Positions 1 through 40,180 are shown, numbered from the stretch's first letter. The stretch: DNA of 64,000 nucleotides from Actinomycetota bacterium (GCA_035573995.1 DATLZM010000004.1:7649-71648), one strand, 5' to 3'. The notes: generated by a model not told the origin, from the letters alone. Program-made: numbers and translations.

Positions 1-179
1 AGGCCCGGCCGGGTGAGTTCGGCCCGCATGAGGAGGGCCATGAGGCCCCCGGCCAGCAGGAAGGCCAGGGAGGTGGCGCAGTAGAGGAGCCCGATGTCCT
101 TGTGGTTGGTCGTGGTGAGCCACCGGACCAGGCCGGCCCGGGCCGGGGCGGGGGCGGGGCGTTCGGCCAGGATCCTCAC
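1..179 (-). CDS. ctaD: cytochrome c oxidase subunit I, N-terminal fragment (gene continues beyond window start)
   Basis: Own minus-strand translation from GTG at 177-179: VRILAERPAPAPARAGLVRWLTTTNHKDIGLLYCATSLAFLLAGGLMALLMRAELTRPG. WLTTTNHKDIG plus the first TM helix is the conserved CoxI N-terminus. GTGA start/stop overlap with the upstream subunit II gene. Confidence 0.85.
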   Translation of the reverse strand, partial: MRILAERPAPAPARAGLVRWLTTTNHKDIGLLYCATSLAFLLAGGLMALLMRAELTRPG

Positions 180-949
180 GATGCCCCTCTCTGGGCCGCC
201 GCCCACCGTTCGAATTCCTGGGGGCTCACGGCCTGGATGAAGAACACCATGCGGTCGTGGTCCAGGCCGCAGAACTCCGCGCAGGCCCCCCGGAAGCGGC
301 CCGGCCGGGGAATGGTGAACTCGAACCGGTTGGTGACCCCCGGGATGGCGTCCCGCTTGAAGAGGAACTCCGGCACGTAGAAGGCGTGGATCACATCTAG
401 GGCGTGGAGGTCCACCCGCACGGGCTCCCCCACCGGGAGGACCACGGTGGCCGGACGGTCCGGGGTCCCCACCACCTCCACCCCCAGCTCGGGGTAGGTG
501 AACCGCCACTGCCACTGGAAGGCGTCCACCCGGAGGGCCACCGTGGAGCCCGAGTCCACGGCCGTCACCCGGCGGTCGGTTCGGACCGTGAAGGCGAACA
601 GGGCCAGGACGAGCAGGACCGGGATCACGGTGTAGGCCACCTCGGCGGGCACGTGGTAGCGGGTCTGTCTGGGCAAGGCCTCGGACCGCCGCCGGTAGCG
701 GACCACGGCCCAGAGGATCAGGGCGTAGGTGAGCCCGCCCACCCCCAGGGCGAAGTAGACGAACAGCCGGTAGAGGTCGGAGATGGCCCTCCCCTCCTCG
801 GTGGCTCCCGGGGGGGCTCCGAACCGGCAGGCAGCCAGGGCCACGAGCGGGATAGGCGGGGCCAGGGCCGGCCAGCGCCGGCCTCCGGGCCGCCGCGGGG
901 CAGCCCGGAGCCTCGCGCTGATGGCTCTACCCTCCCCTGGAGATGACAT
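176..949 (-). CDS. ctaC: cytochrome c oxidase subunit II (CuA)
   Basis: C-terminal 257 aa of ORF 176..1297. TM helices, then CuA ligands HAFYVPEF...CAEFCGLDHDRM. Start placed at in-frame ATG 949 (MSSPGEG...); the upstream part of the ORF is Arg/Ser-rich and looks non-coding. Confidence 0.85.
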   Translation of the reverse strand: MSSPGEGRAISARLRAAPRRPGGRRWPALAPPIPLVALAACRFGAPPGATEEGRAISDLYRLFVYFALGVGGLTYALILWAVVRYRRRSEALPRQTRYHVPAEVAYTVIPVLLVLALFAFTVRTDRRVTAVDSGSTVALRVDAFQWQWRFTYPELGVEVVGTPDRPATVVLPVGEPVRVDLHALDVIHAFYVPEFLFKRDAIPGVTNRFEFTIPRPGRFRGACAEFCGLDHDRMVFFIQAVSPQEFERWAAAQRGAS

Positions 950-1064
950 CGATGCCGTCCTTCCTGGACGTGGACGCAGCCCGGGGGAAAGCTCCGGCCG
1001 CTTGTCCCACGAGGACTGACGTGAGACCCCGTCGGCCTTCCCCACGAGCGAGAGAGGAGGACGG

Positions 1065-2007
1065 ATGCTCGCGGTAGGGATCGACTGGGCCGAGGACGCC
1101 CACCGGGTGGCCCTGGGCCGGCCGGGGGAGGGGGTGGTGGAGATCCTCGTGACCCGCCGCCGGGCCGCCCGGGACGAGCGGCGGCTGCTGAACCGCCTGC
1201 GGGCCGACCTCATGGCGGTGAACCCCGCGGCGCTTCGGTTCGCCGGGGAGGACCTGGGGGCCCCGACCCTGCTCCGGCTCCTCGAGCGCTGGCCCACCCA
1301 GCAGGCCCTGGCCGCCGCGGGGGAGGCCGAGCTCGAGGCGTTCTTCCGCGCCGCCTACCACGGCTGCCCCGCCCGCGCCCTCCGCCGGCTCCGGGAGGCC
1401 CCGGGGCCTCCCACTTCGCCCCCCGGGCCCACCTGGTGCGGGCCAAGGAGGCCACGGTCCGCCTGGCCTGCTCCCAGCTCCTGCTCCTGCACGGGAAGCG
1501 GCGGGCCTGGAAGCGGCGGATGGGGGAGCTCCTGGCGGCCCCGCCCGAGGTGGGATGGGAGGCCGAGGGGAAGCGGTTCCCTGGCGGGGAGGTCTACCGG
1601 AGCTTCCCGGGGCTCGGTGCCCGCCTCGCCGCCAGGGTGGCCGGGGAGATCGGCCACTCCCCCTGGCAGTTCGAGACGCCGAACCCGCTCGCATCCTACG
1701 CGGGGGAAGGCCCCGGTCACCCGCCGCTCGGCCGGAGCGAGCTCGTAGTGGCCTCCCGCCTGGTCTGCAACCGCCACCTCTCGAACGCCCTCCAGGGGTG
1801 GGCGTTCTGCTCCCTGCGGGCCTCGGGCTGGGCCCGGGCCCTCTCCGACGCCCAGCGAGCCAGGGGCAAGGGCCACCACGCCCCCTCCGGGCCCTCGGCA
1901 ACCGGTGGCTCGAGGTCCTGTGGCACTGCCTGCGCAAGGTGAAGCGGTACGACGAGGCGACCCACGTCGCCAACCGCGAGCGGGCCCTCGGACGCGCCGC
2001 CGCATGA
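1065..2007 (+). mobile_element. degenerate IS110-family transposase gene (frameshifted, catalytic domain shortened; pseudogene)
   Basis: IS110-type segments lie in three successive frames. Frame 1065..: MLAVGIDWAEDAHRVAL...AVNPAALRFAGEDL. Frame 1436..1942: SFPGLGARLAARVAGEIG...LASYAG. Frame 1555..2007 ends ALGNRWLEVLWHCLRKVKRYDEATH. At least two frameshifts are needed to join them. Confidence 0.6.
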
Positions 2008-27301: not shown

Positions 27302-27940
27302 CTAGACCTGGGGCTCGACCGGGGAGGAGTCCGAGGGGGCCAGACGGGGGGCCCACAGAGGATAGGGGATCCCGGCCAGACGGTTGATGGCGAACCCCTG
27401 CACCACCAGCAGCAGCACGCCGAGGAGGAGGACGCCCAGCTGGTTGAGCTGGGTCAGGAGTCCCAGGCTCACGATGAGGGTGGTGGCTCCGGCCGGCGGG
27501 TGGGGGACCCGGAGCCAGGCCATCAGCCCGGCGGTGAGGCCGAGGGAGAGCGCTGCGGCCCCCACCCGAGAGGCCGAGATGCCTACGGCCAGGGCCGGAC
27601 CCGCGTCGCGCAGCCCGAATGCCCAGAGGGACAGGTAGCCGGCGGCAGCCCCGATGAGGTGGCCGGCCAGGGTGTTCCGGGGGGAGGCCGTGGGGGCGAG
27701 GGGTGTGTAGAAGAGGAGGAAGGCGGTGGGGCCCAGGGAGGGGAAGACGAAGGGTTGGCGGGTGACCAGAGCCGCGAGGGCCATGACCCCGATGGACAAG
27801 AACCCGTTGACCAGCGCGAAGAGGCCGAGGACCGCCGTCGAGTTGTAGCGGCTCATGAGCGGGGCCAGCCGGAACCGACGGGCCAGCCCGAGGACCACGT
27901 CCGACATCCGGCCCCACGGCTGGTACCGCTCCTGGTTCAT
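27302..27940 (-). CDS. HPP-family membrane protein (family with reported nitrite transport members)
   Basis: 212 aa from ATG 27940. Multiple TMs and the signature LRVPHPPAGATTLIV. 4-nt overlap with the upstream small membrane gene. Confidence 0.85.
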   Translation of the reverse strand: MNQERYQPWGRMSDVVLGLARRFRLAPLMSRYNSTAVLGLFALVNGFLSIGVMALAALVTRQPFVFPSLGPTAFLLFYTPLAPTASPRNTLAGHLIGAAAGYLSLWAFGLRDAGPALAVGISASRVGAAALSLGLTAGLMAWLRVPHPPAGATTLIVSLGLLTQLNQLGVLLLGVLLLVVQGFAINRLAGIPYPLWAPRLAPSDSSPVEPQV

Positions 27941-28248
27941 CGCTGTCCGCGCGGGGCGGTCAGCCAGACGGTCAGGGCCACCAGGAAGGAGAGGGCCTGG
28001 AAGCCGAGGAGCCACCACACGGGCCGCACCTCGCCCCGGAGCCAGGAATCCAGCGCCACGGTGAGGCCCCACAGCTGCCCGAGGACGACGGTGGCCACGA
28101 CGGCGATCCGCGCGTGGAGCATGGCGGCCCGCCACGGGTCCCGGTCCCAGCCGGCTCCGGGCCCCGGCCCGGTGGACGACGGCCTCGGATGGCGTGCGTC
28201 CCGAGGACCGCCGTCTCCGGAGCGGCCGTCCCGACGGTCAGCCTCCAT
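27937..28248 (-). CDS. small membrane protein (charged N-terminus + 2 TM)
   Basis: ATG 28248 with GGCGGAGGGACGCG upstream (alternative ATG 28122 lacks an SD). ...MLHARIAVVATVVLGQLWGLTVALDSWLRGEVRPVWWLLGFQALSFLVALTVWL. Confidence 0.4.
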   Translation of the reverse strand: MEADRRDGRSGDGGPRDARHPRPSSTGPGPGAGWDRDPWRAAMLHARIAVVATVVLGQLWGLTVALDSWLRGEVRPVWWLLGFQALSFLVALTVWLTAPRGQR

Positions 28249-28753
28249 CGCGTCCCTCCGCCGTTCCCACCGCGTAGATCCCGTCGGGTCGCTCTTCCAG
28301 GACCACCCGGGGCAGCGGCCGGGGCGGAGGCCCCGCCAGGACGGCCCCGGTGGCGGGGTCGAAGGCCCCGTTGTGGCAGGGGCAGTGCAGCTCGGAGCGC
28401 TCCGGGCGCCAGACCACCGCGCACGCCAGGTGGGTGCAGACGGCCGAGTAGGCGACCAGGCGCCCGTCCCAGAGGCGCAGGGCGATGGCCTGGTCGTCGG
28501 GCCCCGGGTAGTTGAAGTAGCGGGGCTCACCCCGTTCCAGGCGGGAGGCGATCTTGAGCGGTGGCGCGGACCCCGCTCCGTGCCGGCGGAAGGCACCGGC
28601 CGCCACCGCGACGGTGCCCGCGAGGAGGCCACCGGACACGGTGACCAGGATGCGGAGGTAGTCCCGCCGGGTGATGGGAGCGTCCTCCCGGATCCGGTCC
28701 AGCAGACTGCGGATGGACGGGTCCCGGTCCCCGGAAAGTCCGCTCCCTCCCAC
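28238..28753 (-). CDS. Rieske [2Fe-2S] protein with twin-arginine signal/anchor
   Basis: ITRRDYLRILVTVSGGLLAGTVAVAAGAF (Tat motif + hydrophobic segment). Cluster ligands CTHLAC...CPCHNGAF. Confidence 0.85.
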   Translation of the reverse strand: MGGSGLSGDRDPSIRSLLDRIREDAPITRRDYLRILVTVSGGLLAGTVAVAAGAFRRHGAGSAPPLKIASRLERGEPRYFNYPGPDDQAIALRLWDGRLVAYSAVCTHLACAVVWRPERSELHCPCHNGAFDPATGAVLAGPPPRPLPRVVLEERPDGIYAVGTAEGRDGG

Positions 28754-28754
28754 T

Positions 28755-29321
28755 TCACATCCCTCCCGGCGCCGCTTCCTCCCGGTAGTGGGGGGAGAGG
28801 ACCACTGCCACCCCGGTCCGAACGGAGGTCGCGCCGAACGCCACCACGTCGGTCACCCTGACTCCCGGTCGCTCGCGCTCGAGCTCGGCCAGGGTGCCGT
28901 ACCAGATGGATCCGGTCGGGCAGACCGTGGCGCACATGGGGGCCAGCCCCTCGGAGGTGCGGTCGTAGCAGAGGTTGCACTTGTACTGGAGGAGCTCCTC
29001 GGGAGCCAACTTGGGGACTCCGAACGGACAGGCGTGAACGCAGTTCGCGCACCCGATGCACCGTTCCTTCATGGCTTCCTGGACCACGCCGTCAGCGGTG
29101 ATGAGGATGGCGTCGGCCGGGCAGACCTGGGCGCAGGGAGCCACCGGGTCCTCGCAGTGCATACAGACGGTGGGCATGGCCGCCACGGACCGGCCCACCT
29201 CGAGGTAGTCGAGGTGGATGAGCGACTTGCCCCGGTGGGAATCGCACTCCCGGCAGCCCACGACGCAGGCCTGACACCCGATGCACCGCGCGGGGTCGAT
29301 GAACAGGGTTCGACCCATCAT
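28755..29321 (-). CDS. 4Fe-4S ferredoxin-type electron-transfer subunit (DmsB/FdnH/NrfC-like, four cluster motifs)
   Basis: 188 aa from ATG 29321: CIGCQACVVGCRECD; CMHCEDPVAPCAQVCP; CIGCANCVHACPFG; CNLCYDR...CATVCP. ATGA overlap with the catalytic subunit stop. Confidence 0.9.
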   Translation of the reverse strand: MMGRTLFIDPARCIGCQACVVGCRECDSHRGKSLIHLDYLEVGRSVAAMPTVCMHCEDPVAPCAQVCPADAILITADGVVQEAMKERCIGCANCVHACPFGVPKLAPEELLQYKCNLCYDRTSEGLAPMCATVCPTGSIWYGTLAELERERPGVRVTDVVAFGATSVRTGVAVVLSPHYREEAAPGGM

Positions 29322-31609
29322 CGGTCCGCCGTTCCCCTCCCCTGGGGCACCCTGGGCAGTGGCCCTTCCTCGGCTGTCTTCACCTCGTCCCGGTACGGTT
29401 GCTGCCCCGGTGGAGGGGGCGGGGTCGGGACCGGTTCGAGGTCGGAGGCCCGCTCCAGCCGGCACGCGCAGACCTTGTACTCGGGGATCTTCGACACGGG
29501 GTCCAGGGCCACGATGGTGAGGGTGTTGGCTGCGGCTGCGCCCGGCCAGTGGTAGGGGATGAAGACGGTGTCCGGTCGGATGGTCTCGGTCACGAGGGCA
29601 GGGAAGGTGGCCGTCCCCCGTCGGGTCACGACCCGGACCGGTTCGCCGTCCGTGAAGCCGAGGGAAGGGTGGACCTCGACCCACGGTCGGGGGGCCTGGT
29701 CGACTAGGGCCGGGATGCGCCGGGTCTGGTTCCCGGAGAGGTAGTGGGCCACGGTCCGGCCGGTCGTGAGCCGGAGCGGGTAGGCCTCGTCGGGCTCCTC
29801 GGCCGGTCCGCGCCACTCTACCGGGTGGAACCGGAACTTCCCGTCGGGGTGGTAGGAGCGGAGGTCCTCGAACAGCCGGGGCGTTCCCGGGTGGTCGGGG
29901 GAGGGACACGGCCAGAAGATCCCGTCGGTCTCCTCGAGCCGCTCGTAGGTGATGCCGGAGTAGTCCACGACCCCGCCCCGGGACACGGTCCGGAGCTCGT
30001 CGAAGACGTCCCGGGGACACGAGAATCCGAACCGATCGCCCTGGCCCAGCCGTCGGGCGAGCTCGCACATGATCCACCAGTCCGGCCGGGCCTCGCCCGG
30101 GGGGTCGGCGGCCCGGTTCACCTTGACCACCCGCCCCTCGGCGTTCGTGTGGGTTCCCTCGTCCTCCGCCCACGTGGCTGCGGGCAGGACAACGTCCGCC
30201 CGGGCGGCCGTCTCCGAGAGAAAGAAGTCGACCTGGGCGTGGAACTCCAGGTTCTCGTAGGCCCTGGTGACCCACTGCCGGTCGGGGAGGGAGACCAGCG
30301 GGTTGTTGCAGAAGCCCACCACCCCCCGGATCTCCCCCCGCTCCATCTGTCCGATCATCTCCACGAACGATGTCCCCTTGCCGGGGAGGTCCCGCTCGTC
30401 CACCCCCCACGCGGCCGCCACGGCCCGACGGTGCTCGGGGTCCTCGATGTCGCGGCCTCCCGGGAGCTGGTCCGACTTCTGCCCGTGCTCCCGCCCGCCC
30501 TGGCCGTTGCCCTGACCCGTGATCGTGCCGTACCCGGCGCCGGGGCGGCCGAGCTGCCCGGTGGCCAGGACCAGGTTGATCACGGCCAGGCAGTTCTCCG
30601 TGCCCTGGGTTCGGTGCTCGATCCCACGGGCGTGGAGGGCCATGGCCCGATCGGCCCGGCCCCAGAGCCTCCCCACCTCCTCCACCTGGGCCACCGGGAC
30701 CCCGCAGATCTCGGCTACGTGCTCCGGCGGGTAGGCGGCCACGACCTCCCGGACCGCCTCCCAACCCGTTGTGTGCTCGCGGATGAAGTCCTCGCGCAGG
30801 AGACCCTCCCGGACCACCACGTGGAGGATCCCGTTGAGGAAGGCGGCGTCCGTGCCTGGCCGGAGGGCCACGTGGATGTCGGCCGTGCGGGCGACTGGGG
30901 TCTCCCGGGGATCCACCACGACCAGGCGGGCCCCACGGTCCCGGGCCGCCCACAGGTAGCGAGTCAGGACGGGGAACGTCTCCCCAACGTTCGCCCCGCA
31001 CACCAGGACGACCTGGGTGTGGATCAGGTCCTCCCACGGGTTGGCGGCCCGGTCGATCCCGAAGGCCAGCTTGTTGGCGGCCGCCGCCGAGACCATGCAC
31101 AGTCGGCCGTTGTAGTCGACGTGGCGCGTCCGCAGGGCCACCCGGGCCAGCTTGCCCAGGAGGTAGGCGTTCTCGGTGGTCATGCTGGCCCCTCCGAGCA
31201 GGGCGAACGCGTCGCGGCCGTACGTCTCCTGGATCCTCCGGACCTCGGAGGCCACGCGGTCCAGGGCTTCCTCCCAGGAGGCCCGCCGGAAGGGTCCGCC
31301 CTTCCGGTCCCGGACCAGGGGGTGGAGGAGCCGGTCGGGGTGGTTGACCTGCTGGTAGGCCACCACCCCCTTGGGACAGAGCTTCATGCGGTTGATGGGG
31401 TGGTCCCGGGGCTCGACCCCGAACACCCGGCCCTCCCCGTCCACTCGCAAGTACATCCCGCACTGCACGCCGCAGAAGGGGCAGTGGGTCGGGACCAGCC
31501 GCTCGCGCCCCCGCTCGGGGGCCTCCCAGCGGCCAGCAGGCTCCGCCCCCTCCCCTCGGAACTCGCCCACGCCGGGCGGGACCACGGGGAACGGCAGCTT
31601 CCGCCTCAC
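29318..31609 (-). CDS. molybdopterin (bis-MGD) oxidoreductase catalytic subunit, NarB/NasA-like, no signal peptide
   Basis: 763 aa from GTG 31609 (GTGA overlap with the upstream gene). HCPFCGVQCGMYL...KLCPKG 4Fe-4S motif; ...VVDPRETP..., GQGNGQGGREHGQK, C-terminal IPYHWPG...ANTLT...DPVSKIPEYKVCACRLE. The upstream 360 residues of ORF 29318..32689 are non-coding-like. Confidence 0.9.
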   Translation of the reverse strand: MRRKLPFPVVPPGVGEFRGEGAEPAGRWEAPERGRERLVPTHCPFCGVQCGMYLRVDGEGRVFGVEPRDHPINRMKLCPKGVVAYQQVNHPDRLLHPLVRDRKGGPFRRASWEEALDRVASEVRRIQETYGRDAFALLGGASMTTENAYLLGKLARVALRTRHVDYNGRLCMVSAAAANKLAFGIDRAANPWEDLIHTQVVLVCGANVGETFPVLTRYLWAARDRGARLVVVDPRETPVARTADIHVALRPGTDAAFLNGILHVVVREGLLREDFIREHTTGWEAVREVVAAYPPEHVAEICGVPVAQVEEVGRLWGRADRAMALHARGIEHRTQGTENCLAVINLVLATGQLGRPGAGYGTITGQGNGQGGREHGQKSDQLPGGRDIEDPEHRRAVAAAWGVDERDLPGKGTSFVEMIGQMERGEIRGVVGFCNNPLVSLPDRQWVTRAYENLEFHAQVDFFLSETAARADVVLPAATWAEDEGTHTNAEGRVVKVNRAADPPGEARPDWWIMCELARRLGQGDRFGFSCPRDVFDELRTVSRGGVVDYSGITYERLEETDGIFWPCPSPDHPGTPRLFEDLRSYHPDGKFRFHPVEWRGPAEEPDEAYPLRLTTGRTVAHYLSGNQTRRIPALVDQAPRPWVEVHPSLGFTDGEPVRVVTRRGTATFPALVTETIRPDTVFIPYHWPGAAAANTLTIVALDPVSKIPEYKVCACRLERASDLEPVPTPPPPPGQQPYRDEVKTAEEGPLPRVPQGRGTADR

Positions 31610-32634
31610 CCCGAGAACCCCCGCTTCACGTGTTCGAGGTACGCCCGCCCCCGCCGGACCCGCTTGCACCGGGGGCAGGTCCTGGCCCACTCGGAGAACC
31701 CCAGGCCCACTTCCTGCATGGTCCGCTCGAGGTTCGTCAAGAACGCCTCGGCCTCGAGGGGTTCGCCGCACTCCCGGCATGCCACGAGGCCCGTCCGCTC
31801 GGCACTGGTGCGTTTGAAGACCTCCACTCCGACTTGCGCCGGCCGCTGGATCACGTGGAAGAACTTCCCGAAGGGGATGAACACCAGGGTGAGGACGACC
31901 GAGGCCATGTGGACGAGGGCCAGGAAGTCGTAGCCGCGACCGCCCAGGACGAGGCTGGAGAAGGTGAGCAGGAGCCCGGTCACCGAGATCACCACCAGGG
32001 CGAGCAAGGGCAGGAAGTCGTACCCCAGGCGCTGACCGGTGGTGGCCTCGCGGTCCCGGCTCCGCCGCCAGAGGAAGTACCCGCACCCCGCCAGGACGAG
32101 CACGGCCGAGATGTCCAGGCCATGGAAGATGACCCACCCGAGGAACGACAGGGGGTCGAAGGTCAGGGTCCGGAAGCCCCACAGGTGCAAGACATACCGG
32201 GGCCTCGGACCGGGGACGGCCTGGAAGTAGATCCACCCGAAGACGAGGGGGAACGTGATCAGGGTGGCCAGGACCACGCCCCAGAAGACGAGCTGGTGGG
32301 CGGCCCAGCGCCCCTTCCCTCGAGCCGCGATAAACCGCTGGAGGGTGAGGGATTCCACGAGCGCCCGCGGGACCAGGGTGGGGAACCGGGCGAAGTTGCG
32401 CCAGGACAGGAAGGACCGCCAGCCGCGGACCAGGAGGCGGCGAGCTGGGGGGCTCTGCACCCACATCACGTAGCGGTAGACGACCCCGAAGGTGAGGAAG
32501 ACGATGGCCACCGCGTAGCCGACAAGGGCGGAGTCGAAGGTCCGCAGACGGCCGCTTCCCACGTAGATCGCAGCGACGAGCCCCACGGCTGCCACGGCAC
32601 CGACTGCTGTGGCCGCTACTTGCTGCCGCCTCAT
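31606..32634 (-). CDS. polytopic membrane subunit, NarI/DsrM-like (putative di-heme cytochrome b) with C-terminal CxxC...CxxC tail
   Basis: 342-aa ORF, about 6-7 TMs, His in TM helices (AAHQLVFWG, IFHGLD, LVHMASV), terminal motif IPFGKFFHVIQRP, then ACRECGEPLE...CPRCKR. ATG 32634. Confidence 0.6.
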   Translation of the reverse strand: MRRQQVAATAVGAVAAVGLVAAIYVGSGRLRTFDSALVGYAVAIVFLTFGVVYRYVMWVQSPPARRLLVRGWRSFLSWRNFARFPTLVPRALVESLTLQRFIAARGKGRWAAHQLVFWGVVLATLITFPLVFGWIYFQAVPGPRPRYVLHLWGFRTLTFDPLSFLGWVIFHGLDISAVLVLAGCGYFLWRRSRDREATTGQRLGYDFLPLLALVVISVTGLLLTFSSLVLGGRGYDFLALVHMASVVLTLVFIPFGKFFHVIQRPAQVGVEVFKRTSAERTGLVACRECGEPLEAEAFLTNLERTMQEVGLGFSEWARTCPRCKRVRRGRAYLEHVKRGFSG

Positions 32635-32695: not shown

Positions 32696-33949
32696 TCAGG
32701 ACGAGGGGGTGGCCGCGTCGGGGTCCCAGGTCGGGCGCCCGTGTCGGGTGAAGAAGTCAGTTTCGGCCAGGAGAGGGTGGACCCACGCCTTGGCCAGCGC
32801 CAGGCCCCCTCCGAAGAGGGCTGCCACCGCTCCCAGCGTGGCGAGGAGGGGAGGCACGACTCCGGCAGTCCCCAGCGCGAGCAGCGCCAGGCCCGCATTG
32901 AGCGCGCCGAGTTGGACCCAGCCTCCCCACTCCACCGCCGAGAGGAGCCGCCGCCGTTTCTCTGGGTGGGCGCGTCGCCCGGCCGGCAGGAGATACAGCC
33001 ACGCTCCTAGCAGGGTCTGCAGCACCCACCCACCCCCGAGGGTCACAAGGAACAGGTCCCGCCCGGTGGCCAGCCAAGCCGCACCGTAGCTCAGGCCCAC
33101 CACCGTCCACCCCACGCCCCCAACGAACCACAGAAGCGCGAGGAGGAGATGCCGGCCGGCGATCGGCACCGGCCACCGCCGGGGAGCGGACATCACCCTC
33201 CGGACCATCTCCAGGAGCCCGGCCACGCCAGCCAGGTACACCAGGCCTCCTGCCACTGCGACCGGGGTGACCGCCCAAGCGAGACCGAGGGCGGCGAGGC
33301 CGACCCCCGCTGGCAGCAGCCACTCGGTCAGGCGGCCTGGCCACCTTGGCATTCTGACCCGCAGAACGGTGGGAAGGAGGGTGACAAGGGTGGCGGCGAT
33401 GGTGACCGAAGCCCAGCCCAGCACGTTGAGCACGATGTGCGCGGCTCGCAGTCCCAGCCAGCGTTCTCCGGCAACGACTCCAGCCCCCAAGAGCGTGCCA
33501 ATTGTCCCGCCACCCAGGAGGAACACCACCGCTGCCAGGTAGAGAGCGACGGGGAGTCGGTGCCGCAGGTGCAGAGCCTGCCGCCGCGCTCGGAGGACGA
33601 TCCACCCTAGGAGCAGGGCCCCACCGAGAAAGGCGGACCCACCGACCGCCACCAGTTGGGGCACCTCCACCATCCGTCCGGCCACGACCAGGGCGGCACC
33701 GACACTTACCAGGCCGAACTGACTCCAGGTCATCCAGGACGGTGGGGGCGGAGTGGCGGTGAGCGCGGCCACGAAGGTCTGCATGGCACCGCTGATGGCG
33801 AGGGAGACAGCCCCGGTCAGGGCCAGGTGGAGAGGAACCCACCACCCCAGGCGGAGTCTCTCCGGCAGCAGGAGGGAGGCCGCAGCCGCGGTCAGCCAGG
33901 CCCGGGACGCAGTCTGATAGAGGCGCATGGTGTCTCGCGGCCTCATCAC
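32696..33949 (-). CDS. 12-TM membrane protein of unknown function (conserved intramembrane His; NnrS-like topology?)
   Basis: 417-aa ORF, continuous hydrophobic helices, PLHLALTGAVSLAISGAMQTF and AAHIVLNVLGWASVTIAA repeats. No family recognised with confidence. Confidence 0.5.
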   Translation of the reverse strand: MMRPRDTMRLYQTASRAWLTAAAASLLLPERLRLGWWVPLHLALTGAVSLAISGAMQTFVAALTATPPPPSWMTWSQFGLVSVGAALVVAGRMVEVPQLVAVGGSAFLGGALLLGWIVLRARRQALHLRHRLPVALYLAAVVFLLGGGTIGTLLGAGVVAGERWLGLRAAHIVLNVLGWASVTIAATLVTLLPTVLRVRMPRWPGRLTEWLLPAGVGLAALGLAWAVTPVAVAGGLVYLAGVAGLLEMVRRVMSAPRRWPVPIAGRHLLLALLWFVGGVGWTVVGLSYGAAWLATGRDLFLVTLGGGWVLQTLLGAWLYLLPAGRRAHPEKRRRLLSAVEWGGWVQLGALNAGLALLALGTAGVVPPLLATLGAVAALFGGGLALAKAWVHPLLAETDFFTRHGRPTWDPDAATPSS

Positions 33950-35488: not shown

Positions 35489-35989
35489 ATGGGACCGACG
35501 GAACCGATCGAGGAGTTCACCCGGATCTTCCGGGAGGAGCATCGCAGGGTGCGTGACGGACTGCTCGACCTGGCCGAGGCCTTCAGGGCCCGAGACCGGT
35601 CCCGGGCCCAGGCCCTCCTGCGGGACGTGGCCGAACTGACCGGCCCCCACTTCCGCTACGAGGAGGAGTCCCTGTACCCAGCCCTGGTCCGCATCTTCGG
35701 AGCCGCGTACGTCGAGAAGCTGCTGGCCGACCACGATCGGGCCATCGCCGCGGCCCGGAGGCTCACGGAGCTGGCCGGCGCGGACGAGCTGCGGGAGGAG
35801 GACGTGGAGGAGGCCACTGAGCTCGTCCGCCAGGTCCTGCCCCACGTGAGCGACTGCGAAGGGCTGTCGCTCATGGTGGAGCGCTTCGAGGAAGAGACTG
35901 TCCGTTCCATCCTGGACGCCAGGGCCCGGGCCCTGGACGAGGGACTGGACCTCATGCGGTGGGCGGAGGAAGTCCGCGGCCGACCGTGA
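35489..35989 (+). CDS. hemerythrin-like (HHE cation-binding) domain protein
   Basis: GAGGAGGTGAC before the ATG. FREEHRRVRDGLLDL...GPHFRYEEESLYPAL...LLADHDRA...LPHVSDCE gives His/Glu spacing of a four-helix hemerythrin domain. Confidence 0.7.
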   Translation: MGPTEPIEEFTRIFREEHRRVRDGLLDLAEAFRARDRSRAQALLRDVAELTGPHFRYEEESLYPALVRIFGAAYVEKLLADHDRAIAAARRLTELAGADELREEDVEEATELVRQVLPHVSDCEGLSLMVERFEEETVRSILDARARALDEGLDLMRWAEEVRGRP

Positions 35990-37068
35990 CGACGGGTCGC
36001 TTCAGGCGAGGGCTGCGGGCCGTGAAGGGCCCGGCGGTCGTTGCCGGCGTCCTGTGGCTGGGCCTGACCGCGCTGGGGGAGGTGGCCCTCTGGCGGCCCC
36101 GGTTCTTCCCCGGGCGCTATGCGGCGGAGGCGCAGCTCGTCGACTCGGCCTTCCTCCTCCTGGCCCGCCTGGCGGTTCCGGTGTTCGCGTTCGTCCTCTC
36201 CGTGCTGGTGGTGGCGGTGGCCCGCTTCCGGCACCGGCGGGGACCTAGGCAGGACGGCCCGCCCCTCCGGGGCGACCCGGTCGTCTACTCGCTGTGGCTG
36301 TCGCTCACCACGGCCCTGGCGCTGCTGGTCATCCTGAACCCGGGCCTCCTCGGCCTGCAGGAGCTCCAGCAACCGGTGGGGGAGCGGGACGAGCTGGTGG
36401 TGCGGGCCGAGGCTTCCCGCTGGTCTTGGGCCGTTACCTATCCGAACGGGGTGACCACGAGGGACGAACTCGTCCTCCCGGCCGGCCGTCGGGTGCGGTT
36501 CGAGGTCACCAGCACCGACATCCTCCACTCTTTCTGGATCCCTGCCTTCCGGCTGAAGGTGGATGCAGTCCCGGGCATGACGACGGTGGTCCACGCCACT
36601 CCGACCCGGGTCGGGTCGTCCGACCACGACCCGGCCCTTCGGGTCCAGTGCGCGGAGCTCTGCGGGCTGGGCCACTCCATGATGTCCATGCGGGTCCGGG
36701 TCGTTGACCAGGAGACCTTCGAGGCGTGGCTGCGGGGAACGACCCCGGGTCCAGCCGCCTGCGCCCCGGCCCGTGCCGAACTCCGGATCACGGCGGAGCG
36801 GATCGCCTTCGACCGGTCGTGCCTGGCGGTCCCCGCGGACACTCCGGTCACCCTCACCCTGGACAACCGCGACCAGGGCATCCCCCACAACCTGTCAGTG
36901 GCCCGAGACGAGGGCTTCACGGACGTCGTCTTCAGCGGGGAGATCTTCTCGGGGCCCGGGAGCCGGACCTACCGGCTGGGCCCGCTCCCGGCAGGCACCT
37001 ACTTCTTCCGCTGCGACGTCCACCCCGTCCCAGCCATGTCCGGCACGTTCATCGTGGAGGAGGGTTAG
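35986..37068 (+). CDS. ctaC: heme-copper oxidase subunit II (CuA) fused to a C-terminal type-1 (blue) copper cupredoxin domain
   Basis: GTG 35986 overlaps the hemerythrin stop (alternative GTG 35959). TMs, CuA site ILHSFWIPAF...CAELCGLGHSMM, then a second cupredoxin: TLDNRDQGIPHNLSV...GTYFFRCDVHPVPAMSGTFIV (His...Cys-X2-His-X4-Met). Confidence 0.85.
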   Translation: MTTGRFRRGLRAVKGPAVVAGVLWLGLTALGEVALWRPRFFPGRYAAEAQLVDSAFLLLARLAVPVFAFVLSVLVVAVARFRHRRGPRQDGPPLRGDPVVYSLWLSLTTALALLVILNPGLLGLQELQQPVGERDELVVRAEASRWSWAVTYPNGVTTRDELVLPAGRRVRFEVTSTDILHSFWIPAFRLKVDAVPGMTTVVHATPTRVGSSDHDPALRVQCAELCGLGHSMMSMRVRVVDQETFEAWLRGTTPGPAACAPARAELRITAERIAFDRSCLAVPADTPVTLTLDNRDQGIPHNLSVARDEGFTDVVFSGEIFSGPGSRTYRLGPLPAGTYFFRCDVHPVPAMSGTFIVEEG

Positions 37069-37073
37069 CGAAG

Positions 37074-38900
37074 GTGCGCCCCTTGGTCCGTGGCCTGGTG
37101 TCCGGCTTCCTGGGCTTCGGCCTGGGGGCGGGCCTCACGGCCCTCGTTCAGGTGCTCACGGGCCGACCGGTGGGCGGCGCGGTTGCTCTGGTGCTGGGGT
37201 ACCTCCTGGGCCTGGCTGGGTGGCTCCTGGGCGTGGGGGTGTGGCACGCCTGGGTGCGGCAGTGGTTCGGGGGCCGGACCGAGCCCGAGCCGAGGGGGTG
37301 GCGCCGCTACCTCGCCTTCTGTACCGACCACAAGGTGATCGGGGTTCAGTACCTCGTCACGTTCGTCGTCGTCTTCCTGCTGGCGGGGGCCCTGGCCATG
37401 CTCATGCGGGTGGAGCTGTCCTCCCCGGGCCTCACCATCATGTCCCCCGATGGCTACAACACGGTAATGAGCCTCCACGGCATCCTCATGATCACCGTGG
37501 CCGTGGCGGCGGTCATGGGGGGCCTGGGCAACTACCTGGTCCCGCTCATGATCGGGGCCGAGGACATGGCCTTCCCCCGGCTCAATGCCCTGTCATACTG
37601 GCTGGTCCCTCCGGCGGCCGTCCTGCTCCTGGCCGCTCCGTTTGCCGGGGGCTTGGAGGCTGGCTGGACGGCCTACCCGCCTCTCTCGGAGATCAGCCCC
37701 CTCGGCCAGGTCCTGTTCGTCCTGGCCATCATCACGTTCGGCCTGTCCTCCATCCTGGGGGGTCTGAACTTCCTGGCCACCATCATCACCATGCGGGCAC
37801 CCGGGATGACGTGGGGCCGGTTGCCGATCTTCGTGTGGTCCATCTTCGCCGCCTCCGTCCTGAGCCTGCTCTTCACGCAGTTCTTCGCCGCCTCGGTCCT
37901 CCTGGTCCTCCTGGACCGGGTGGCTGGCATGGCCTTCTTCGACGCCGCCCGCGGGGGGAAGCCCCTCCTGTACCAGCACCTGTTCTGGTTCTACTCCCAC
38001 CCGGCCGTGTACATCATGATCCTGCCCGGCTTCGGCATCGCCCTCGAGGTCCTGGCTCACTTCTCGCGCAAGCCGCTGTTCGCCTACCCGCTGGCCGTCG
38101 CCGGATTCCTCGGGATCGTGGTTCTCTCCGGTGCGGTCTGGGGCCACCACATGTTCACCTCCGGCATGTCCCAGGGGGCGGTCACGCCGTTCATGGTCAG
38201 CACCGAGCTCATCTCTATCCCCACCGGGCTCGTGTTCCTCTCCGCATTGGGGACCATCTGGCGAGGGCGGCTGTGGCTGGCCACGCCGATGCTCTTCGCC
38301 CTCGCGTTTGTATTCAACTTCCTGATCGGAGGGATCACGGGGATTTTCCTGGCGGACGTGGCCACCGACGTGCACCTGACCGACACCTACTTCGTGGTGG
38401 CACACTTCCACTACACGATTGTGGGTGGGGAGATCTTCGCCTTGTTCGCCGGGATCTACTACTGGTTCCCAAAGATGACGGGGAGGATGTACCACGAGGG
38501 CCTCGGGAGGCTGCACGCCTGGTGGATGTTCCTGGGCTTCAATCTGGTCTTCCTGCCGATGTTCTGGCTGGGCGTCAACGGGATGAACCGGCGGGTCGCC
38601 GACTACGTTCCGCAGTTCGCCGGCGTGAACCGCTTCGTCAGCGTTGCGGCGTTCTTCCTGGGCGGGAGCTTCCTCGTGTTCGCGTGGAACGTGCTGACCG
38701 CCTGGATCCGTGGCCCCCAGGCGGCCGCCAACCCGTGGGGGGCCAGGACTCTCGAGTGGCAGATCGGTTCTCCTCCGCCCAGGGAGAACTTCCCGGTCGT
38801 CCCCGAAGTGGTGGGAGGGCCCTACGACTACGGTCTCCCGGGTGCGGTGCACGCGCGATTGGGTCCATCTGTGCCGATCGCTGGGGGTGAGTTGGAGTGA
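37074..38900 (+). CDS. ctaD: heme-copper oxidase subunit I, A2-type, with N-terminal 2-TM extension
   Basis: 608 aa from GTG 37074 (residue 117 of ORF 36726..38900). FCTDHKVIGVQY, GNYLVPLMIGAEDMAFPRLN, WFYSHPAVYIMILPGFG (YS in place of the helix-VI Glu marks the A2 class), WGHHMF, VAHFHYT. Confidence 0.95.
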   Translation: MRPLVRGLVSGFLGFGLGAGLTALVQVLTGRPVGGAVALVLGYLLGLAGWLLGVGVWHAWVRQWFGGRTEPEPRGWRRYLAFCTDHKVIGVQYLVTFVVVFLLAGALAMLMRVELSSPGLTIMSPDGYNTVMSLHGILMITVAVAAVMGGLGNYLVPLMIGAEDMAFPRLNALSYWLVPPAAVLLLAAPFAGGLEAGWTAYPPLSEISPLGQVLFVLAIITFGLSSILGGLNFLATIITMRAPGMTWGRLPIFVWSIFAASVLSLLFTQFFAASVLLVLLDRVAGMAFFDAARGGKPLLYQHLFWFYSHPAVYIMILPGFGIALEVLAHFSRKPLFAYPLAVAGFLGIVVLSGAVWGHHMFTSGMSQGAVTPFMVSTELISIPTGLVFLSALGTIWRGRLWLATPMLFALAFVFNFLIGGITGIFLADVATDVHLTDTYFVVAHFHYTIVGGEIFALFAGIYYWFPKMTGRMYHEGLGRLHAWWMFLGFNLVFLPMFWLGVNGMNRRVADYVPQFAGVNRFVSVAAFFLGGSFLVFAWNVLTAWIRGPQAAANPWGARTLEWQIGSPPPRENFPVVPEVVGGPYDYGLPGAVHARLGPSVPIAGGELE

Positions 38901-39136
38901 CTCGAAGGGCTCCAGCAGGGAGCGGGGTCGGGCGGCCCGAGCAGCTTGCGGCCCGGCTCCGACTGGGTACGAGGGTGTTCGGGGTGCTCCTCGCTCTCGA
39001 GGTGGTCGAGTACCTGGTCGGGACCACGCTCGAGCACGCACTGGTCCCGCTCATCCTCCTGGCTCTGGTAGCCGCCTGGCCCATCGTGCGCTACTACATG
39101 CACGTTGACCAGCTGAGGCCAGGAGGCCGGCAGTGA
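38897..39136 (+). CDS. small 2-TM protein, oxidase subunit IV-like
   Basis: GTGA overlaps at both ends (with subunit I stop and subunit III start). ...VFGVLLALEVVEYLVGTTLEHALVPLILLALVAAWPIVRYYMH. Confidence 0.5.
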   Translation: MTRRAPAGSGVGRPEQLAARLRLGTRVFGVLLALEVVEYLVGTTLEHALVPLILLALVAAWPIVRYYMHVDQLRPGGRQ

Positions 39137-39705
39137 GCAGCGTCCGAGTAGCCACCACACACGGCCAACTGGTCGGCCGACTGCGGGCCAACCAGCTCGG
39201 GCTGTGGTTCTTCATCGCGTCCGAGTCGTTCCTGTTCGCGGCGGTCATCTCGGCCCGTTACTACGTCCTGGGAGTGGAGCGACCAGAGGAGCTGAACCAG
39301 CCCCTCGGCTTCGCGATTTCCGTGGTCCTTCTCCTCTCGAGCCTCACGGCGTACCGGGCGGAGATCGCCATGGGCCACGACGACCGGCGCCGCTTCTTTC
39401 GCAACGTCCGCACGACCATTGGCTTGGGCCTGCTGTTCCTGGTCGGAGTGGGCCTCGAGTGGCAGGAGGGCCTCCGGTTCTTCCCCCCGCGCACGCTCTA
39501 CGGGAGCGTGTTCTTCACCCTCGTGGGCCTGCACGCGTTTCACGTCTTCACGGGCCTCGTCGGTCTCGCGGTCGTCACGGACATGGCCCGGAGGGGGCGT
39601 TTCGGGTCGCAGGACCTGTGGCCGGTGGAGGGGGTCGTGAAGTACTGGCACTTCGTGGACGTGGCCTGGGTGTTCATCTTCCCCACGCTGTACCTGGTCT
39701 CCTAG
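39133..39705 (+). CDS. ctaE: heme-copper oxidase subunit III
   Basis: LGLWFFIASESFLFAAVISARYY...GLHAFHVFTGL...KYWHFVDVAWVFIFPTLYL is the canonical CoxIII pattern. Confidence 0.9.
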   Translation: MSSVRVATTHGQLVGRLRANQLGLWFFIASESFLFAAVISARYYVLGVERPEELNQPLGFAISVVLLLSSLTAYRAEIAMGHDDRRRFFRNVRTTIGLGLLFLVGVGLEWQEGLRFFPPRTLYGSVFFTLVGLHAFHVFTGLVGLAVVTDMARRGRFGSQDLWPVEGVVKYWHFVDVAWVFIFPTLYLVS

Positions 39706-39721: not shown

Positions 39722-39970
39722 TTACCGGAGGCTGGGTTCGTGGAGTCCGACGTTAGCGAGTGAGTCCCTCTTTCTCCAGTAGGCGGTCTCGAACTCCGCG
39801 GGCGGGACGTGCCCGATGAGCTCCAGGAGGCGGCGGTGGTTGAACCAGTCCACCCACTCAAGCGTGCCGTACTCGACGTCGTCGATCCCCCTCCACGGGC
39901 CCCGCCGGCGGGTGAGCTCGGCCTTGTACAGCCCGATGATCGTTTCGGCCAGCGCGTTGTCGTGACCATC
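39722..39970 (-). mobile_element. IS3-family transposase C-terminal fragment (relic)
   Basis: Last 82 codons of ORF 39722..40180: DGHDNALAETIIGLYKAELTRRRGPWRGIDDVEYGTLEWVDWFNHRRLLELIGHVPPAEFETAYW is the end of an rve integrase core. Nothing transposase-like lies upstream. Confidence 0.6.
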
Positions 39971-40015
39971 CTTCTCTCGCTCACTGCTTTGCGGTGGCGA
40001 ACCGGCAGTGGCAGC

Positions 40016-40180
40016 GACATCCGCACCTTCGAGATCACGGTCCGGGCGACGGAGGCGATGGCCGTCCTCACGCTCGAACCGGGAGCGACAGAGGAGGCGA
40101 GCGTCACGTTCCGGGAGCTCAGGCAGATCCTCTACGGGTGTCCCGTACCCGGGCACTACCGCGCCGGTAGGTGGAGCCAC
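40016..40180 (+). pseudogene. cupredoxin gene remnant (internally deleted)
   Basis: Within ORF 39809..40270: DIRTFEITVRATE...LEPGATEEASVTFRELRQILYGCPVPGHYRAGRWSH resembles the start and the Cys-X-X-Pro-Gly-His copper loop of plastocyanin-like proteins (compare FLCSVPGHAEAGMTG at 42192..42638). The middle of the domain and the Met ligand are missing. Confidence 0.3.

What the first reader, a model, noticed from the sequence alone, without database searches (positions are those of the whole stretch)
35489..39705. Second heme-copper oxidase operon: A2-type subunit I, subunit II fused to a blue-copper domain, preceded by a hemerythrin gene
Subunit I has WFYSHPAVY, the Tyr-Ser replacement of the helix-VI Glu that defines A2-type oxidases, plus an extra N-terminal 2-TM extension. 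Subunit II carries a normal CuA site (CAELCGLGHSMM). It continues into a second cupredoxin with type-1 copper ligands (PHN ... C-DV-H-PVPA-M). In caa3 oxidases a cytochrome c is fused at that position. This implies a built-in blue-copper electron entry. A hemerythrin-like O2/NO-binding protein overlaps the subunit II start (GTGA). The window also holds a conventional ctaC-ctaD at 1-949, so this is an accessory oxidase.
Basis: partly seen in the sequence, partly recalled or inferred. Interest (0 to 1): 0.62.

Follow-up and report, generated by a model that had tools for sequence, protein, structure and literature searches.

The report
Oxidase with built-in blue-copper domain
This uncultured actinobacterium carries an extra oxygen-respiring enzyme whose electron-receiving subunit is fused to a small blue-copper protein where related enzymes carry a cytochrome c; the design is common in uncultured bacteria but I found no paper that describes or tests it.

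Summary
Window 35489-39705 (+) encodes five tightly packed genes.

All CuA ligands and all four blue-copper ligands are present and conserved in every fused homologue I aligned. The modelled C-terminal domain (pLDDT 93.7) matches auracyanins best. The fusion is not an artefact:
- The same genome holds a second copy.
- 18 of 61 related genomes have it.
- Dozens of 50%-identity clusters carry it.

The most likely role is a hard-wired copper electron entry into CuA, analogous to the haem c domain of caa3 oxidases. This is inferred, not shown.

Subunit I has the A2 Tyr-Ser motif and two extra N-terminal helices. It also lacks the K-channel lysine (Val387). That subclade is already catalogued (Degli Esposti 2021).

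The hemerythrin link is local. It recurs only in one close relative. Elsewhere this hemerythrin family sits beside nitrate reductase genes.

The lineage keeps cytochrome c biogenesis, so a copper-only chain is not supported. Verdict: a new variant of a known kind, of moderate interest, seen repeatedly in this scan.

The parts
35489..35989 (+). Hemerythrin-like (HHE) di-iron protein, 166 aa, cytoplasmic (no signal peptide or TM segment seen in its N-terminal sequence)
   Evidence: PF01814, E 6.5e-12. It belongs to a tight family of about 167 aa, 60-66% identical across phyla. His18, His54, Glu58, His82, Asp83, His119 and Asp122 are invariant.
35986..37068 (+). Oxidase subunit II fused to a type-1 cupredoxin, 360 aa (348 aa if it starts at GTG 36022). 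Three predicted N-terminal helices are followed by the CuA domain, a short linker and the blue-copper domain.
   Evidence: PF00116 and PF13473. TIGR02866 is above its cut-off. The AF2 model has pLDDT 88.3 and pTM 0.74. Its Foldseek hits are subunit II chains, including caa3 2YEV_B.
36526..36684 (+). CuA ligand stretch: His181, Cys222, Glu224, Cys226, His230, Met233
   Evidence: These residues are invariant in all 23 aligned homologues.
36739..37065 (+). Linker (about residues 252-263) plus type-1 cupredoxin domain. Ligands are His301, Cys343, His346 and Met351. A Cys259/Cys279 pair is a possible disulfide.
   Evidence: The ligands are invariant in all 15 aligned domains and in all 19 fused sequences. 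The domain model has pLDDT 93.7. The best PDB folds are auracyanins: 6KOL TM 0.79, 2AAN 0.76, 1QHQ 0.75. By sequence the best PDB hits are auracyanin A (E 6e-4) and plastocyanin, whose ligands align.
37074..38900 (+). Oxidase subunit I, 608 aa. It has the A2 helix-VI motif (Tyr307-Ser308) and all haem and CuB histidines. Tyr313 is the cross-link tyrosine and Asp164 is the D-channel aspartate. The K-channel Lys is replaced by Val387, and Glu378 in helix VIII is conserved.
   Evidence: PF00115, E 3e-143. Motifs across homologues are, and positions.
37074..37322 (+). N-terminal extension of subunit I, about 80 aa with two hydrophobic helices
   Evidence: The sequence is and matches no Pfam family. 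Homologues are 600-640 aa long. tblastn matches start at query residues 1-28 in all K-less relatives, whether or not their subunit II is fused. The literature lists these as '2TM' subtypes (PMC8239418, Table S1).
38897..39136 (+). Small subunit IV (CtaF/COX4_pro-like), 79 aa, overlapping both neighbours by GTGA
   Evidence: PF03626 at E 4.4e-6 and 27.4 bits, cut-off 28.9. A gene of the same size sits in the same position in homologous operons; it has a PF03626 hit in L081 and L082 and a weak one in L083.
39133..39705 (+). Oxidase subunit III, short form, 190 aa
   Evidence: PF00510, E 2e-17. NF050119 aa3_CtaE_Actin, E 3e-21, below its cut-off.
39722..40180 (-). Integrase-core relic of an insertion sequence directly after the operon. 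It marks the edge of a likely acquired segment.
   Evidence: PF13683 rve_3, E 7e-6. Third-codon-position G+C (GC3) of the operon genes is 0.86-0.91, against 0.93-0.99 in most of the window and 0.97-0.99 in the second copy.
176..1297 (-). Conventional ctaC (subunit II of the main aa3 oxidase, not fused). Its ctaD runs off the window's left edge.
   Evidence: PF00116 and COX2_TM. The ctaD has FGHPEVY and PTGIKFF. qcrC-like dihaem c and qcrB lie just upstream in the contig.

Best explanation
The region is an accessory aa3-type (A-family) oxygen reductase operon. Its genes are hemerythrin-like, subunit II-cupredoxin, subunit I, subunit IV and subunit III.

Subunit II is anchored in the membrane. 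Outside the cell membrane it displays first its CuA domain and then, after a linker of about 12 residues, a type-1 blue-copper domain of the auracyanin/plastocyanin/amicyanin kind.

Proposed mechanism: the blue copper takes single electrons from an external or membrane-anchored donor. It passes them to CuA, then to haem a, then to the haem a3-CuB site where O2 is reduced. It would play the role that the fused cytochrome c domain plays in caa3 oxidases. In a cell without a periplasm such a carrier has to be tethered, and fusion is the extreme form of tethering.

Subunit I belongs to the already catalogued 'A2, two extra N-terminal helices, no K-channel lysine' subclade. The D-channel entrance is intact. 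Proton uptake for chemistry therefore probably runs through the D-channel or a remodelled K-region (Thr377, Glu378, Ser381, Thr384).

The hemerythrin-like gene is co-transcribed here. It more likely belongs to the nitrate/NO theme of the surrounding island than to the oxidase itself.

Shown: gene content, ligands, fold, conservation, distribution.
Inferred: copper occupancy, direction of electron flow, the donor, the proton path.
For: - Intact reading frame; both domains recognised.
- The CuA ligands and the electron-entry Trp pair are conserved, and the T1 ligands His/Cys/His/Met are invariant in every fused sequence aligned. Five sequences that a strict pattern first missed also keep them.
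- The domain model has pLDDT 93.7, and its best PDB folds are the electron carriers auracyanin A and B and the Roseiflexus auracyanin. In the HMMER alignment the ligands line up with those of plastocyanin.
- The II-I-IV-III operon with a fused subunit II recurs in independent assemblies. A second copy lies in this genome on contigs C412 and C382, which overlap by 141 bp.
- The fusion is present in 18 of 61 related genomes, paired with three different subunit I types. About 28 of the best 150 50%-identity cluster representatives are fused.
- The fused state is strongly clustered on the subunit II tree. It needs at least 7 changes among 142 rows, against about 29 for shuffled labels. It is therefore heritable and maintained.
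- The genome encodes several membrane-anchored or lipoprotein cupredoxins 40-50% identical to the fused domain. These are candidate partners or the evolutionary source.
- Non-covalent precedents are in the literature: AcoP/Cup and rusticyanin with the Acidithiobacillus oxidase, and sulfocyanin with archaeal oxidases (PMC8239418, PMC10654088).
Against: - There is no biochemical evidence of any kind. Copper binding, colour, redox potential and electron transfer are untested.
The linker has low confidence (pLDDT about 70).
- No donor is identified. The neighbouring Rieske-bearing complex does not co-occur with this oxidase type.
- Unfused members of the same subunit I subclade have no cupredoxin gene of this family within 6 kb. 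The domain is therefore an optional add-on, not an obligatory partner.
- 60 of 61 relatives keep cytochrome c biogenesis, so cytochrome c could still be the donor, directly to CuA.
- Pfam family PF13473 and the fold hits also include copper-handling proteins that are not electron carriers, such as CopI and CupA.
Confidence: 0.7

Rival explanations
1. The C-terminal cupredoxin is a copper-handling domain, acting as a chaperone, store or resistance module. It would deliver Cu to CuA/CuB or buffer Cu at the membrane surface rather than carry electrons.
For: PF13473 Cupredoxin_1 is the best Pfam match. A nearby free cupredoxin in the window matches CopI models. The fold hits include the copper chaperone CupA, and FtrB, the cupredoxin of an iron-uptake system. 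In L086 the operon sits beside SCO1 and a PCuAC-like gene.
Against: - The full His/Cys/His/Met set, with a Cys-x2-His-x(2-4)-Met loop, is the signature of redox type-1 sites and is invariant.
- The best fold matches are bona fide electron carriers.
- Dedicated CuA chaperones are separate genes where they are seen.
- The domain sits exactly where caa3 enzymes carry their electron-entry domain (2YEV_B).
Confidence: 0.1
2. The blue-copper domain is a direct substrate-oxidising site. It would take electrons from an extracellular high-potential donor such as Fe(II), as proposed for rusticyanin and sulfocyanin, making this a chemolithotrophic oxidase.
For: - Subunit I has the same K-channel residue pattern as a subclade that Degli Esposti et al. 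place among early-diverging A-family oxidases, close to those of iron oxidisers (PMC8239418 Tables S1 and S3).
- Rusticyanin and AcoP are among the fold hits, with TM 0.72-0.73.
Against: - No Cyc2-type or other iron-oxidation genes were seen in the operon or in homologous loci.
- Auracyanins match better than rusticyanin.
- The fusion also occurs on ordinary A1 oxidases with a normal K-channel.
- The surrounding genes point to hypoxia and nitrate metabolism, not iron.
Confidence: 0.08
3. The hemerythrin-like protein is a dedicated partner of this oxidase. It would act as an O2 or NO sensor or buffer that tunes the oxidase.
For: - It lies no more than 32 nt upstream on the same strand, possibly translationally coupled.
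- The arrangement is kept in a close relative, L133.
- One distant fused operon, L085, has a DUF2249-hemerythrin and an NnrS-like gene downstream.
Against: - No hemerythrin gene lies within the DNA held upstream of the fused subunit II gene in L081, L083, L086, L001 or L104-L107, nor before this genome's second copy.
- Outside this genus, 4 of the 5 places looked up put the family beside nitrate reductase, nitrate-transporter-like MFS or molybdoenzyme genes. In L135 it lies between narG and narH.
Confidence: 0.15
4. The fusion is an assembly or annotation artefact, or a decaying pseudogene in an island.
For: - The genome is a fragmented metagenome bin (525 contigs, 6% contamination).
- An insertion-sequence relic and other decayed genes follow the operon.
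Against: - The frame is uninterrupted.
- Third-codon-position G+C is 0.91, typical of coding sequence here.
- More than 100 homologues with the same architecture come from independent assemblies.
- There is a second copy in the same bin.
- All catalytic ligands are intact.
Confidence: 0.01

Closest known systems
caa3-type cytochrome c oxidases (Thermus thermophilus, PDB 2YEV; Rhodothermus marinus; Bacillus)
   Same: They are A-family oxidases. The Thermus and Rhodothermus enzymes are A2 with the Tyr-Ser motif. Subunit II carries an extra redox domain fused after the CuA domain, which serves as a built-in electron entry. 2YEV_B is among the top fold hits of the full model.
   Different: - The fused domain here is a type-1 copper cupredoxin, not a haem c domain; subunit II has no CxxCH.
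- Subunits I and III are separate genes.
- Subunit I has two extra N-terminal helices and lacks the K-channel lysine.
'Chloroflexi hybrid/KC channel' A2 subclade of COX1 (Degli Esposti et al. 2021, PMC8239418, Suppl. Tables S1 and S3; e.g. Chloroflexi bacterium CSP1-4)
   Same: - It has two extra N-terminal helices and A2 classification.
- Its K-channel residue pattern is Tyr / Leu / Val / Thr / Ser / Glu at Paracoccus positions 280/291/354/351/357/292. Here these are Tyr313, Leu324, Val387, Thr384, Ser390 and Glu325.
- Subunit II has no Glu at the position of Paracoccus Glu78; it is Tyr here by my own reading of the helix, and the column varies among homologues.
   Different: The main text and the four supplement files I searched do not mention a cupredoxin fused to COX2: 'cupredoxin' occurs once in the main text, for the separate Cup proteins, and not at all in the supplements. 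They also do not discuss the conserved helix-VIII Glu (Glu378 here).
Auracyanins A and B of Chloroflexus and the Roseiflexus auracyanin (PDB 2AAN, 1QHQ, 6KOL)
   Same: They are the best structural and sequence matches of the fused domain. They are membrane-tethered type-1 copper carriers of monoderm-like bacteria.
   Different: - Auracyanins are separate proteins of about 140 aa with their own anchor.
- Sequence identity is only about 20%.
- The ligand loop here is shorter (Cys-x2-His-x4-Met), closer to that of amicyanin.
AcoP/Cup and rusticyanin with the Acidithiobacillus aa3 oxidase; sulfocyanin (SoxE) with archaeal SoxM-type oxidases
   Same: A cupredoxin is physically associated with a haem-copper oxidase and encoded in or next to its operon. 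The Acidithiobacillus oxidase also lacks the K-channel lysine.
   Different: - Those cupredoxins are separate polypeptides.
- AcoP has a green copper site.
- The hosts are acidophilic iron or sulfur oxidisers.

Membership tests
A-family haem-copper oxygen reductase, subunit I | Six invariant histidines (two for haem a, one for haem a3, three for CuB) and the cross-linked tyrosine in helix VI | tested here: met
   His135, His309, His358, His359, His444, His446 and Tyr313 align with those of mycobacterial CtaD structures (positions).
A-family haem-copper oxygen reductase, subunit I | D-channel entrance (Asp in the helix II-III loop, flanking Asn residues) | tested here: met
   GNYLVPLMIGAEDMAFPRLN: Asp164 and both Asn residues align with the GAPDVAFPRLN stretch of CtaD.
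A-family haem-copper oxygen reductase, subunit I | K-channel lysine in helix VIII (Lys354 Paracoccus / Lys362 Rhodobacter) | tested here: not met
   IPTGLVF aligns with VPTGIKF, so the Lys position is Val387. The same holds in all 18 loci at 55% identity or more. In 117 of the 120 best database homologues the position is hydrophobic and the helix-VIII Glu is present; for the other three the pattern match failed or found a different site. Homologues at 54% identity or less keep Lys.
A2 subtype (Pereira classification) | Tyr-Ser in helix VI in place of the Glu of the xGHPEV motif | tested here: met
   WFYSHPAVY here against WFFGHPEVY in CtaD. The genome's own conventional ctaD has GHPEV.
Cytochrome c oxidase subunit II (CuA type) | CuA ligands His, Cys, Cys, His, Met and a backbone Glu, plus the electron-entry Trp | tested here: met
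   His181, Cys222, Glu224, Cys226, His230 and Met233 are invariant, and Trp146/Trp148 nearly so. TIGR02866 scores 155.2 bits against a cut-off of 147.7.
caa3-type subunit II | C-terminal mono-haem cytochrome c domain with CxxCH | tested here: not met
   There is no CxxCH in the 360-aa sequence. The C-terminal domain is PF13473 cupredoxin.
Type-1 (blue) copper cupredoxin | Ligand set His ... Cys-x(n)-His-x(m)-Met on a Greek-key beta-sandwich | tested here: met
   His301, Cys343, His346 and Met351 are invariant in 15 of 15 domains. The model has pLDDT 93.7 with eight strands. TM is 0.75-0.79 to auracyanins. The ligands align with those of plastocyanin.
Type-1 (blue) copper cupredoxin | Actual Cu(II) binding with a 600-nm band, small A-parallel EPR and reversible one-electron redox | not testable with these tools
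   This needs expressed protein.
Hemerythrin/HHE cation-binding domain | Four-helix bundle with His/Glu/Asp ligands for a di-iron site | tested here: met
   PF01814 scores 46.5 bits against a cut-off of 25.3. His18, His54, Glu58, His82, Asp83, His119 and Asp122 are invariant in 16 sequences.
Bacteriohemerythrin (O2-carrying, NF033749 / PRK00808) | Score above the NCBIfam cut-off | tested here: not met
   16 bits against cut-offs of 84 and 109. A family profile gives only E 0.04 to the DcrH hemerythrin domain in the PDB.

The most novel reading that the evidence does not exclude
These Actinomycetota and Chloroflexota may run a dedicated copper wire beside their cytochrome c chain. Membrane-anchored cupredoxins, such as the DUF2269-cupredoxin and lipoprotein paralogues in this genome, would carry electrons from a quinol-oxidising or periplasm-facing enzyme to the blue-copper domain fused to subunit II. 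That domain feeds an oxidase whose proton uptake has been rebuilt: no K-channel lysine, and a conserved helix-VIII glutamate. In this genome the wire would be switched on together with a hemerythrin-like protein and the neighbouring nitrate-reducing machinery under low-O2 or NO stress. The cell would gain an NO-tolerant or copper-dependent, haem-c-independent route to O2.
Probability: 0.12. Interest if true: 0.75.

Novelty: new variant of a known kind. Interest (0 to 1): 0.47.

Why it matters
caa3 oxidases are the textbook example of an oxidase with its electron carrier built in. A copper counterpart would show that the same solution was reached with a different cofactor. It arose, or was kept, several times, on at least three subunit I types in one bacterial order.

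It offers a compact system for measuring type-1 Cu to CuA electron transfer within one polypeptide. It also bears on how bacteria without a periplasm wire their respiratory chains, and on copper versus iron economy in soil and hot-spring bacteria.

Public annotation calls the fused subunit II simply 'cytochrome c oxidase subunit II'. It often mislabels the partner subunit I as 'cbb3-type'. Metabolic reconstructions of these uncultured lineages therefore miss the feature.

Tried and rejected
- **Rieske complex as donor.** I asked whether the neighbouring Rieske / cytochrome b / molybdoenzyme operon (27302-32634, minus strand) donates to the blue-copper domain. Its Rieske protein is found in G000, G001, G002, G014 and G022 only. 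The A2 fused oxidase is in G000, G002, G008, G011 and G032. There is no co-occurrence.
- **DosR-type operator.** A search for GGGAC-N6-GTCCC upstream of the operon gave 14 matches in the window against 18 expected by chance, and none in the promoter region.
- **Promoter and terminator scans.** The consensus scans found nothing in this high-G+C DNA.
- **Cytochrome-c-free lineage.** The idea fails: CcsA-type assembly genes are present in 60 of 61 relatives, and this genome has a dihaem cytochrome c.
- **A free cupredoxin next to unfused operons.** None of this family lies within 6 kb of unfused operons of the same subclade.
- **12-TM neighbour.** Comparing the 12-TM protein (32696-33949) with the NnrS-like gene beside a distant fused operon was inconclusive (E 0.03).
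- **Genome-contig scan.** It was seeded on CuA motifs and returned mostly unfused subunit II genes, so it did not work as a survey of the fusion.
- **Literature.** Nine full-text searches found no description of the fusion. Subscription-only papers are not covered.
Full report
**What is there.**
The window has about 73% G+C. Between 35489 and 39705 five genes lie head to tail on the + strand.
- A 166-aa hemerythrin-like protein (35489-35989).
- Oxidase subunit II with a C-terminal cupredoxin (35986 or 36022 to 37068).
- Subunit I (37074-38900), preceded by a GGAGGAGGG ribosome-binding site.
- A 79-aa subunit IV (38897-39136) that overlaps both neighbours by GTGA.
- A short subunit III (39133-39705).

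Pfam and NCBIfam recognise all of them. An insertion-sequence integrase relic follows directly. Third-codon-position G+C (GC3) of the operon (0.86-0.91) is below that of most of the window (0.93-0.99).

**Subunit II and its extra domain.**
The CuA ligands His181, Cys222, Glu224, Cys226, His230 and Met233 are invariant in 23 aligned homologues. The Trp pair of the electron-entry loop is nearly so.

After the CuA domain comes a linker of about 12 residues and then a cupredoxin of about 97 residues. Its ligands His301, Cys343, His346 and Met351 are invariant in every fused sequence aligned. Five sequences that a strict pattern first missed also keep them. Cys259 and Cys279 are conserved in the actinobacterial-type sequences and in free paralogues. 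They may form a disulfide; this is an inference.

AlphaFold2 gives pLDDT 88.3 and pTM 0.74 for the whole protein and 93.7 for the domain alone.
- The whole model matches subunit II chains, including the caa3 subunit II 2YEV_B.
- The domain matches auracyanins best (TM 0.75-0.79). Next come a Bacillus Cupredoxin_1 protein, rusticyanin, amicyanin, AcoP and plastocyanins.
- By sequence the best solved relatives are auracyanin A (E 6e-4) and plastocyanin, with the ligands aligned.

There is no CxxCH, so this is not a caa3 subunit II.

**Is the fusion real and how common is it?**
About 95 of the 120 best database homologues carry both PF00116 and PF13473, at identities down to 39%. The only names given are 'cytochrome c oxidase subunit II' or 'hypothetical protein', from bacterium HR12, Dehalococcoidia, Chloroflexi and Ilumatobacteraceae.

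An exhaustive search of 1.84 billion cluster representatives listed about 28 full-length fused representatives among the best 150.

The II-I-IV-III operon with a fused subunit II recurs in independent metagenome contigs.

This genome (3.14 Mb, 525 contigs) has a second copy on contigs C412 and C382, which overlap by 141 bp. Identities to the window copy are 55-58% for subunit II, 76% for subunit I, 44% for IV and 69% for III. Its GC3 is 0.97-0.99. The copy in the same-genus genome G002 resembles this second copy. The window copy therefore looks like the acquired one.

Among 61 genomes of the same family and order, 18 have a full-length fused match. The fusion is paired there with three subunit I types:
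- A2 with two extra helices and no Lys.
- A1 without Lys.
- A1 with the canonical Lys.

On a tree of 142 subunit II cores, 110 are fused. The state needs at least 7 changes, 4 of them forced by well-supported branches, against about 29 for shuffled labels. The fusion is therefore old, heritable, and gained or lost several times.

**Subunit I.**
Alignment with mycobacterial CtaD structures shows all six metal-binding histidines, the cross-link Tyr313 and the D-channel Asp164. It also shows the A2 motif, YSHPAV in place of GHPEV.

The K-channel lysine is replaced by Val387. A glutamate (Glu378) lies nine residues upstream.
- This pair of features is found in all 18 loci at 55% identity or more, whether their subunit II is fused or not. 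Homologues at 54% or less keep the Lys.
- It is found in 117 of the 120 best database homologues; for the other three the pattern match failed or hit a different site.

The N-terminal extension of about 80 residues and two helices is shared by the whole wider group.

Degli Esposti et al. 2021 already list this subclade: 'Chloroflexi hybrid/KC channel', A2, one or two extra helices. Their K-channel residue pattern for Chloroflexi CSP1-4 (Tyr/Leu/Val/Thr/Ser/Glu) is exactly the one found here. By my own reading of the helix, subunit II also has Tyr in place of the K-channel entry Glu (Paracoccus Glu78), and that column varies among homologues. The subunit I peculiarities are therefore real but not new.

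**Genomic setting.**
A ribosomal protein S12 cluster places the organism among uncultured Actinomycetota. The genome also encodes:
- A conventional A1 ctaC/ctaD next to a dihaem cytochrome c and cytochrome b, that is, qcr-type genes.
- A CcsA-type cytochrome c assembly protein.
- A divergent third haem-copper enzyme on contig C199.
- A further CuA-domain open frame on contig C276, possibly nitrous oxide reductase, which I did not check.
- Several membrane-anchored or lipoprotein cupredoxins 40-50% identical to the fused domain.

Cytochrome c assembly genes are present in 60 of 61 relatives.

**The hemerythrin.**
It belongs to a strikingly conserved family of about 167 aa. Members are 60-66% identical across Chloroflexi, Acidobacteria, Armatimonadota and Latescibacteria, with all di-iron ligands invariant. 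It is far below the bacteriohemerythrin cut-offs and has no close solved relative.

Only one close relative (L133, 85% identical) keeps the DUF1786 / hemerythrin / subunit II arrangement. Other fused operons, including this genome's second copy, have no hemerythrin gene upstream.

Elsewhere the family lies in these places:
- Between narG and narH (L135).
- Between narHI plus a transporter and an alternative complex III (L134).
- Beside an Rrf2 regulator, a ScdA-hemerythrin protein, an MFS transporter and a molybdoenzyme (L138).
- Beside an MFS transporter and a molybdoenzyme (L139).
- Once in an unrelated place.

In the window it faces a nitrate-reductase-like operon on the other strand. I read it as part of the nitrate/NO theme of this island, co-transcribed with the oxidase here. 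I do not read it as a general oxidase partner.

**Mechanism.**
The best-supported reading is a built-in electron entry: donor to type-1 Cu to CuA to haem a to haem a3/CuB.

In its favour:
- The domain sits at the position of the caa3 cytochrome c domain.
- Its ligand set is that of redox cupredoxins.
- Its closest structural relatives are tethered electron carriers.
- It is conserved on several oxidase types.

Still inferred: copper occupancy, geometry relative to CuA, the donor, and how protons reach the active site without the lysine.

Two ideas about the donor failed:
- The neighbouring Rieske complex does not co-occur with this oxidase type.
- Unfused operons of the subclade have no adjacent cupredoxin gene.

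**Novelty.**
Nine full-text searches found cupredoxins that associate non-covalently with oxidases (AcoP/Cup, rusticyanin, sulfocyanin). None described a subunit II-cupredoxin fusion. Subscription journals were not searchable.

This scan's own notes list 117 earlier sightings in at least 107 genomes, with similar conclusions. Those are unchecked AI notes and I do not count them as evidence. They do show that this instance is one of many.

I rate it a new variant of a known kind, of moderate interest.

Noticed in passing
own genome, contigs C412:9557-10312 and C382 (reverse), outside the window: A second complete fused oxidase operon: subunit II-cupredoxin of 356 aa, subunit I of 605 aa with the same extension and no K-channel Lys, a small gene matching the window's subunit IV (44% identical), and subunit III. 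The two contigs overlap by 141 bp. An ECF sigma factor and a 341-aa membrane protein lie upstream, with no hemerythrin.
   Followed up: partly
own genome, contig C199 (locus L101): A third haem-copper enzyme with a CuA subunit II (IRCLELCGAFHQAM). Its subunit I has helix-VI region FFAGHMLVNVQIY, which fits neither the A nor the usual B motif. A lipoprotein cupredoxin (…FECKYHVAQGM…) is encoded divergently next to it. It may be one of the recently defined B-derived families. I did not classify it.
   Followed up: no
own genome, contigs C214 and C50: Two paralogous proteins join a DUF2269 four-helix membrane domain to a type-1 cupredoxin about 40% identical to the fused domain (PF10027 + PF13473). 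They are candidate anchored electron carriers.
   Followed up: partly
L135:5001-5510, L134:5001-5486, L138:4001-4501, L139:4001-4495: The hemerythrin family of the window (about 167 aa, over 60% identical across phyla) sits inside or beside respiratory nitrate reductase gene sets in Anaerolineales and other lineages. In L135 it lies between narG and narH. This is an apparently unstudied accessory protein of nitrate respiration.
   Followed up: partly
loci L108-L122 (genomes of the same order): A1-type subunit I genes (GHPEVY) come in two forms there. One has the canonical PTGVK. The other has TTE[LM]ISIPTGVLFF, the same Lys loss plus helix-VIII Glu as in the A2 subclade. Both are paired with cupredoxin-fused subunit II. 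The Glu-for-Lys pattern therefore occurs on two helix-VI backgrounds.
   Followed up: partly
database names: NCBI annotation names many subunit I proteins of this A2 subclade 'cbb3-type cytochrome c oxidase subunit I'. That is wrong for an enzyme with a CuA subunit II and subunits III and IV.
   Followed up: no
window 32696-33949 (-): A 417-aa multi-pass membrane protein with no Pfam or NCBIfam match. It has only a weak pairwise similarity (E 0.03, an AH...GW motif) to an NnrS-like gene that follows a distant fused oxidase operon (L085).
   Followed up: partly
window 35986 vs 36022: The start of subunit II is ambiguous. GTG 35986 gives the GTGA overlap with the hemerythrin stop. GTG 36022 is the public gene call and gives an N-terminus (MKGPAVVAG...) like that of homologues (MKREWLIAG...).
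   Followed up: yes
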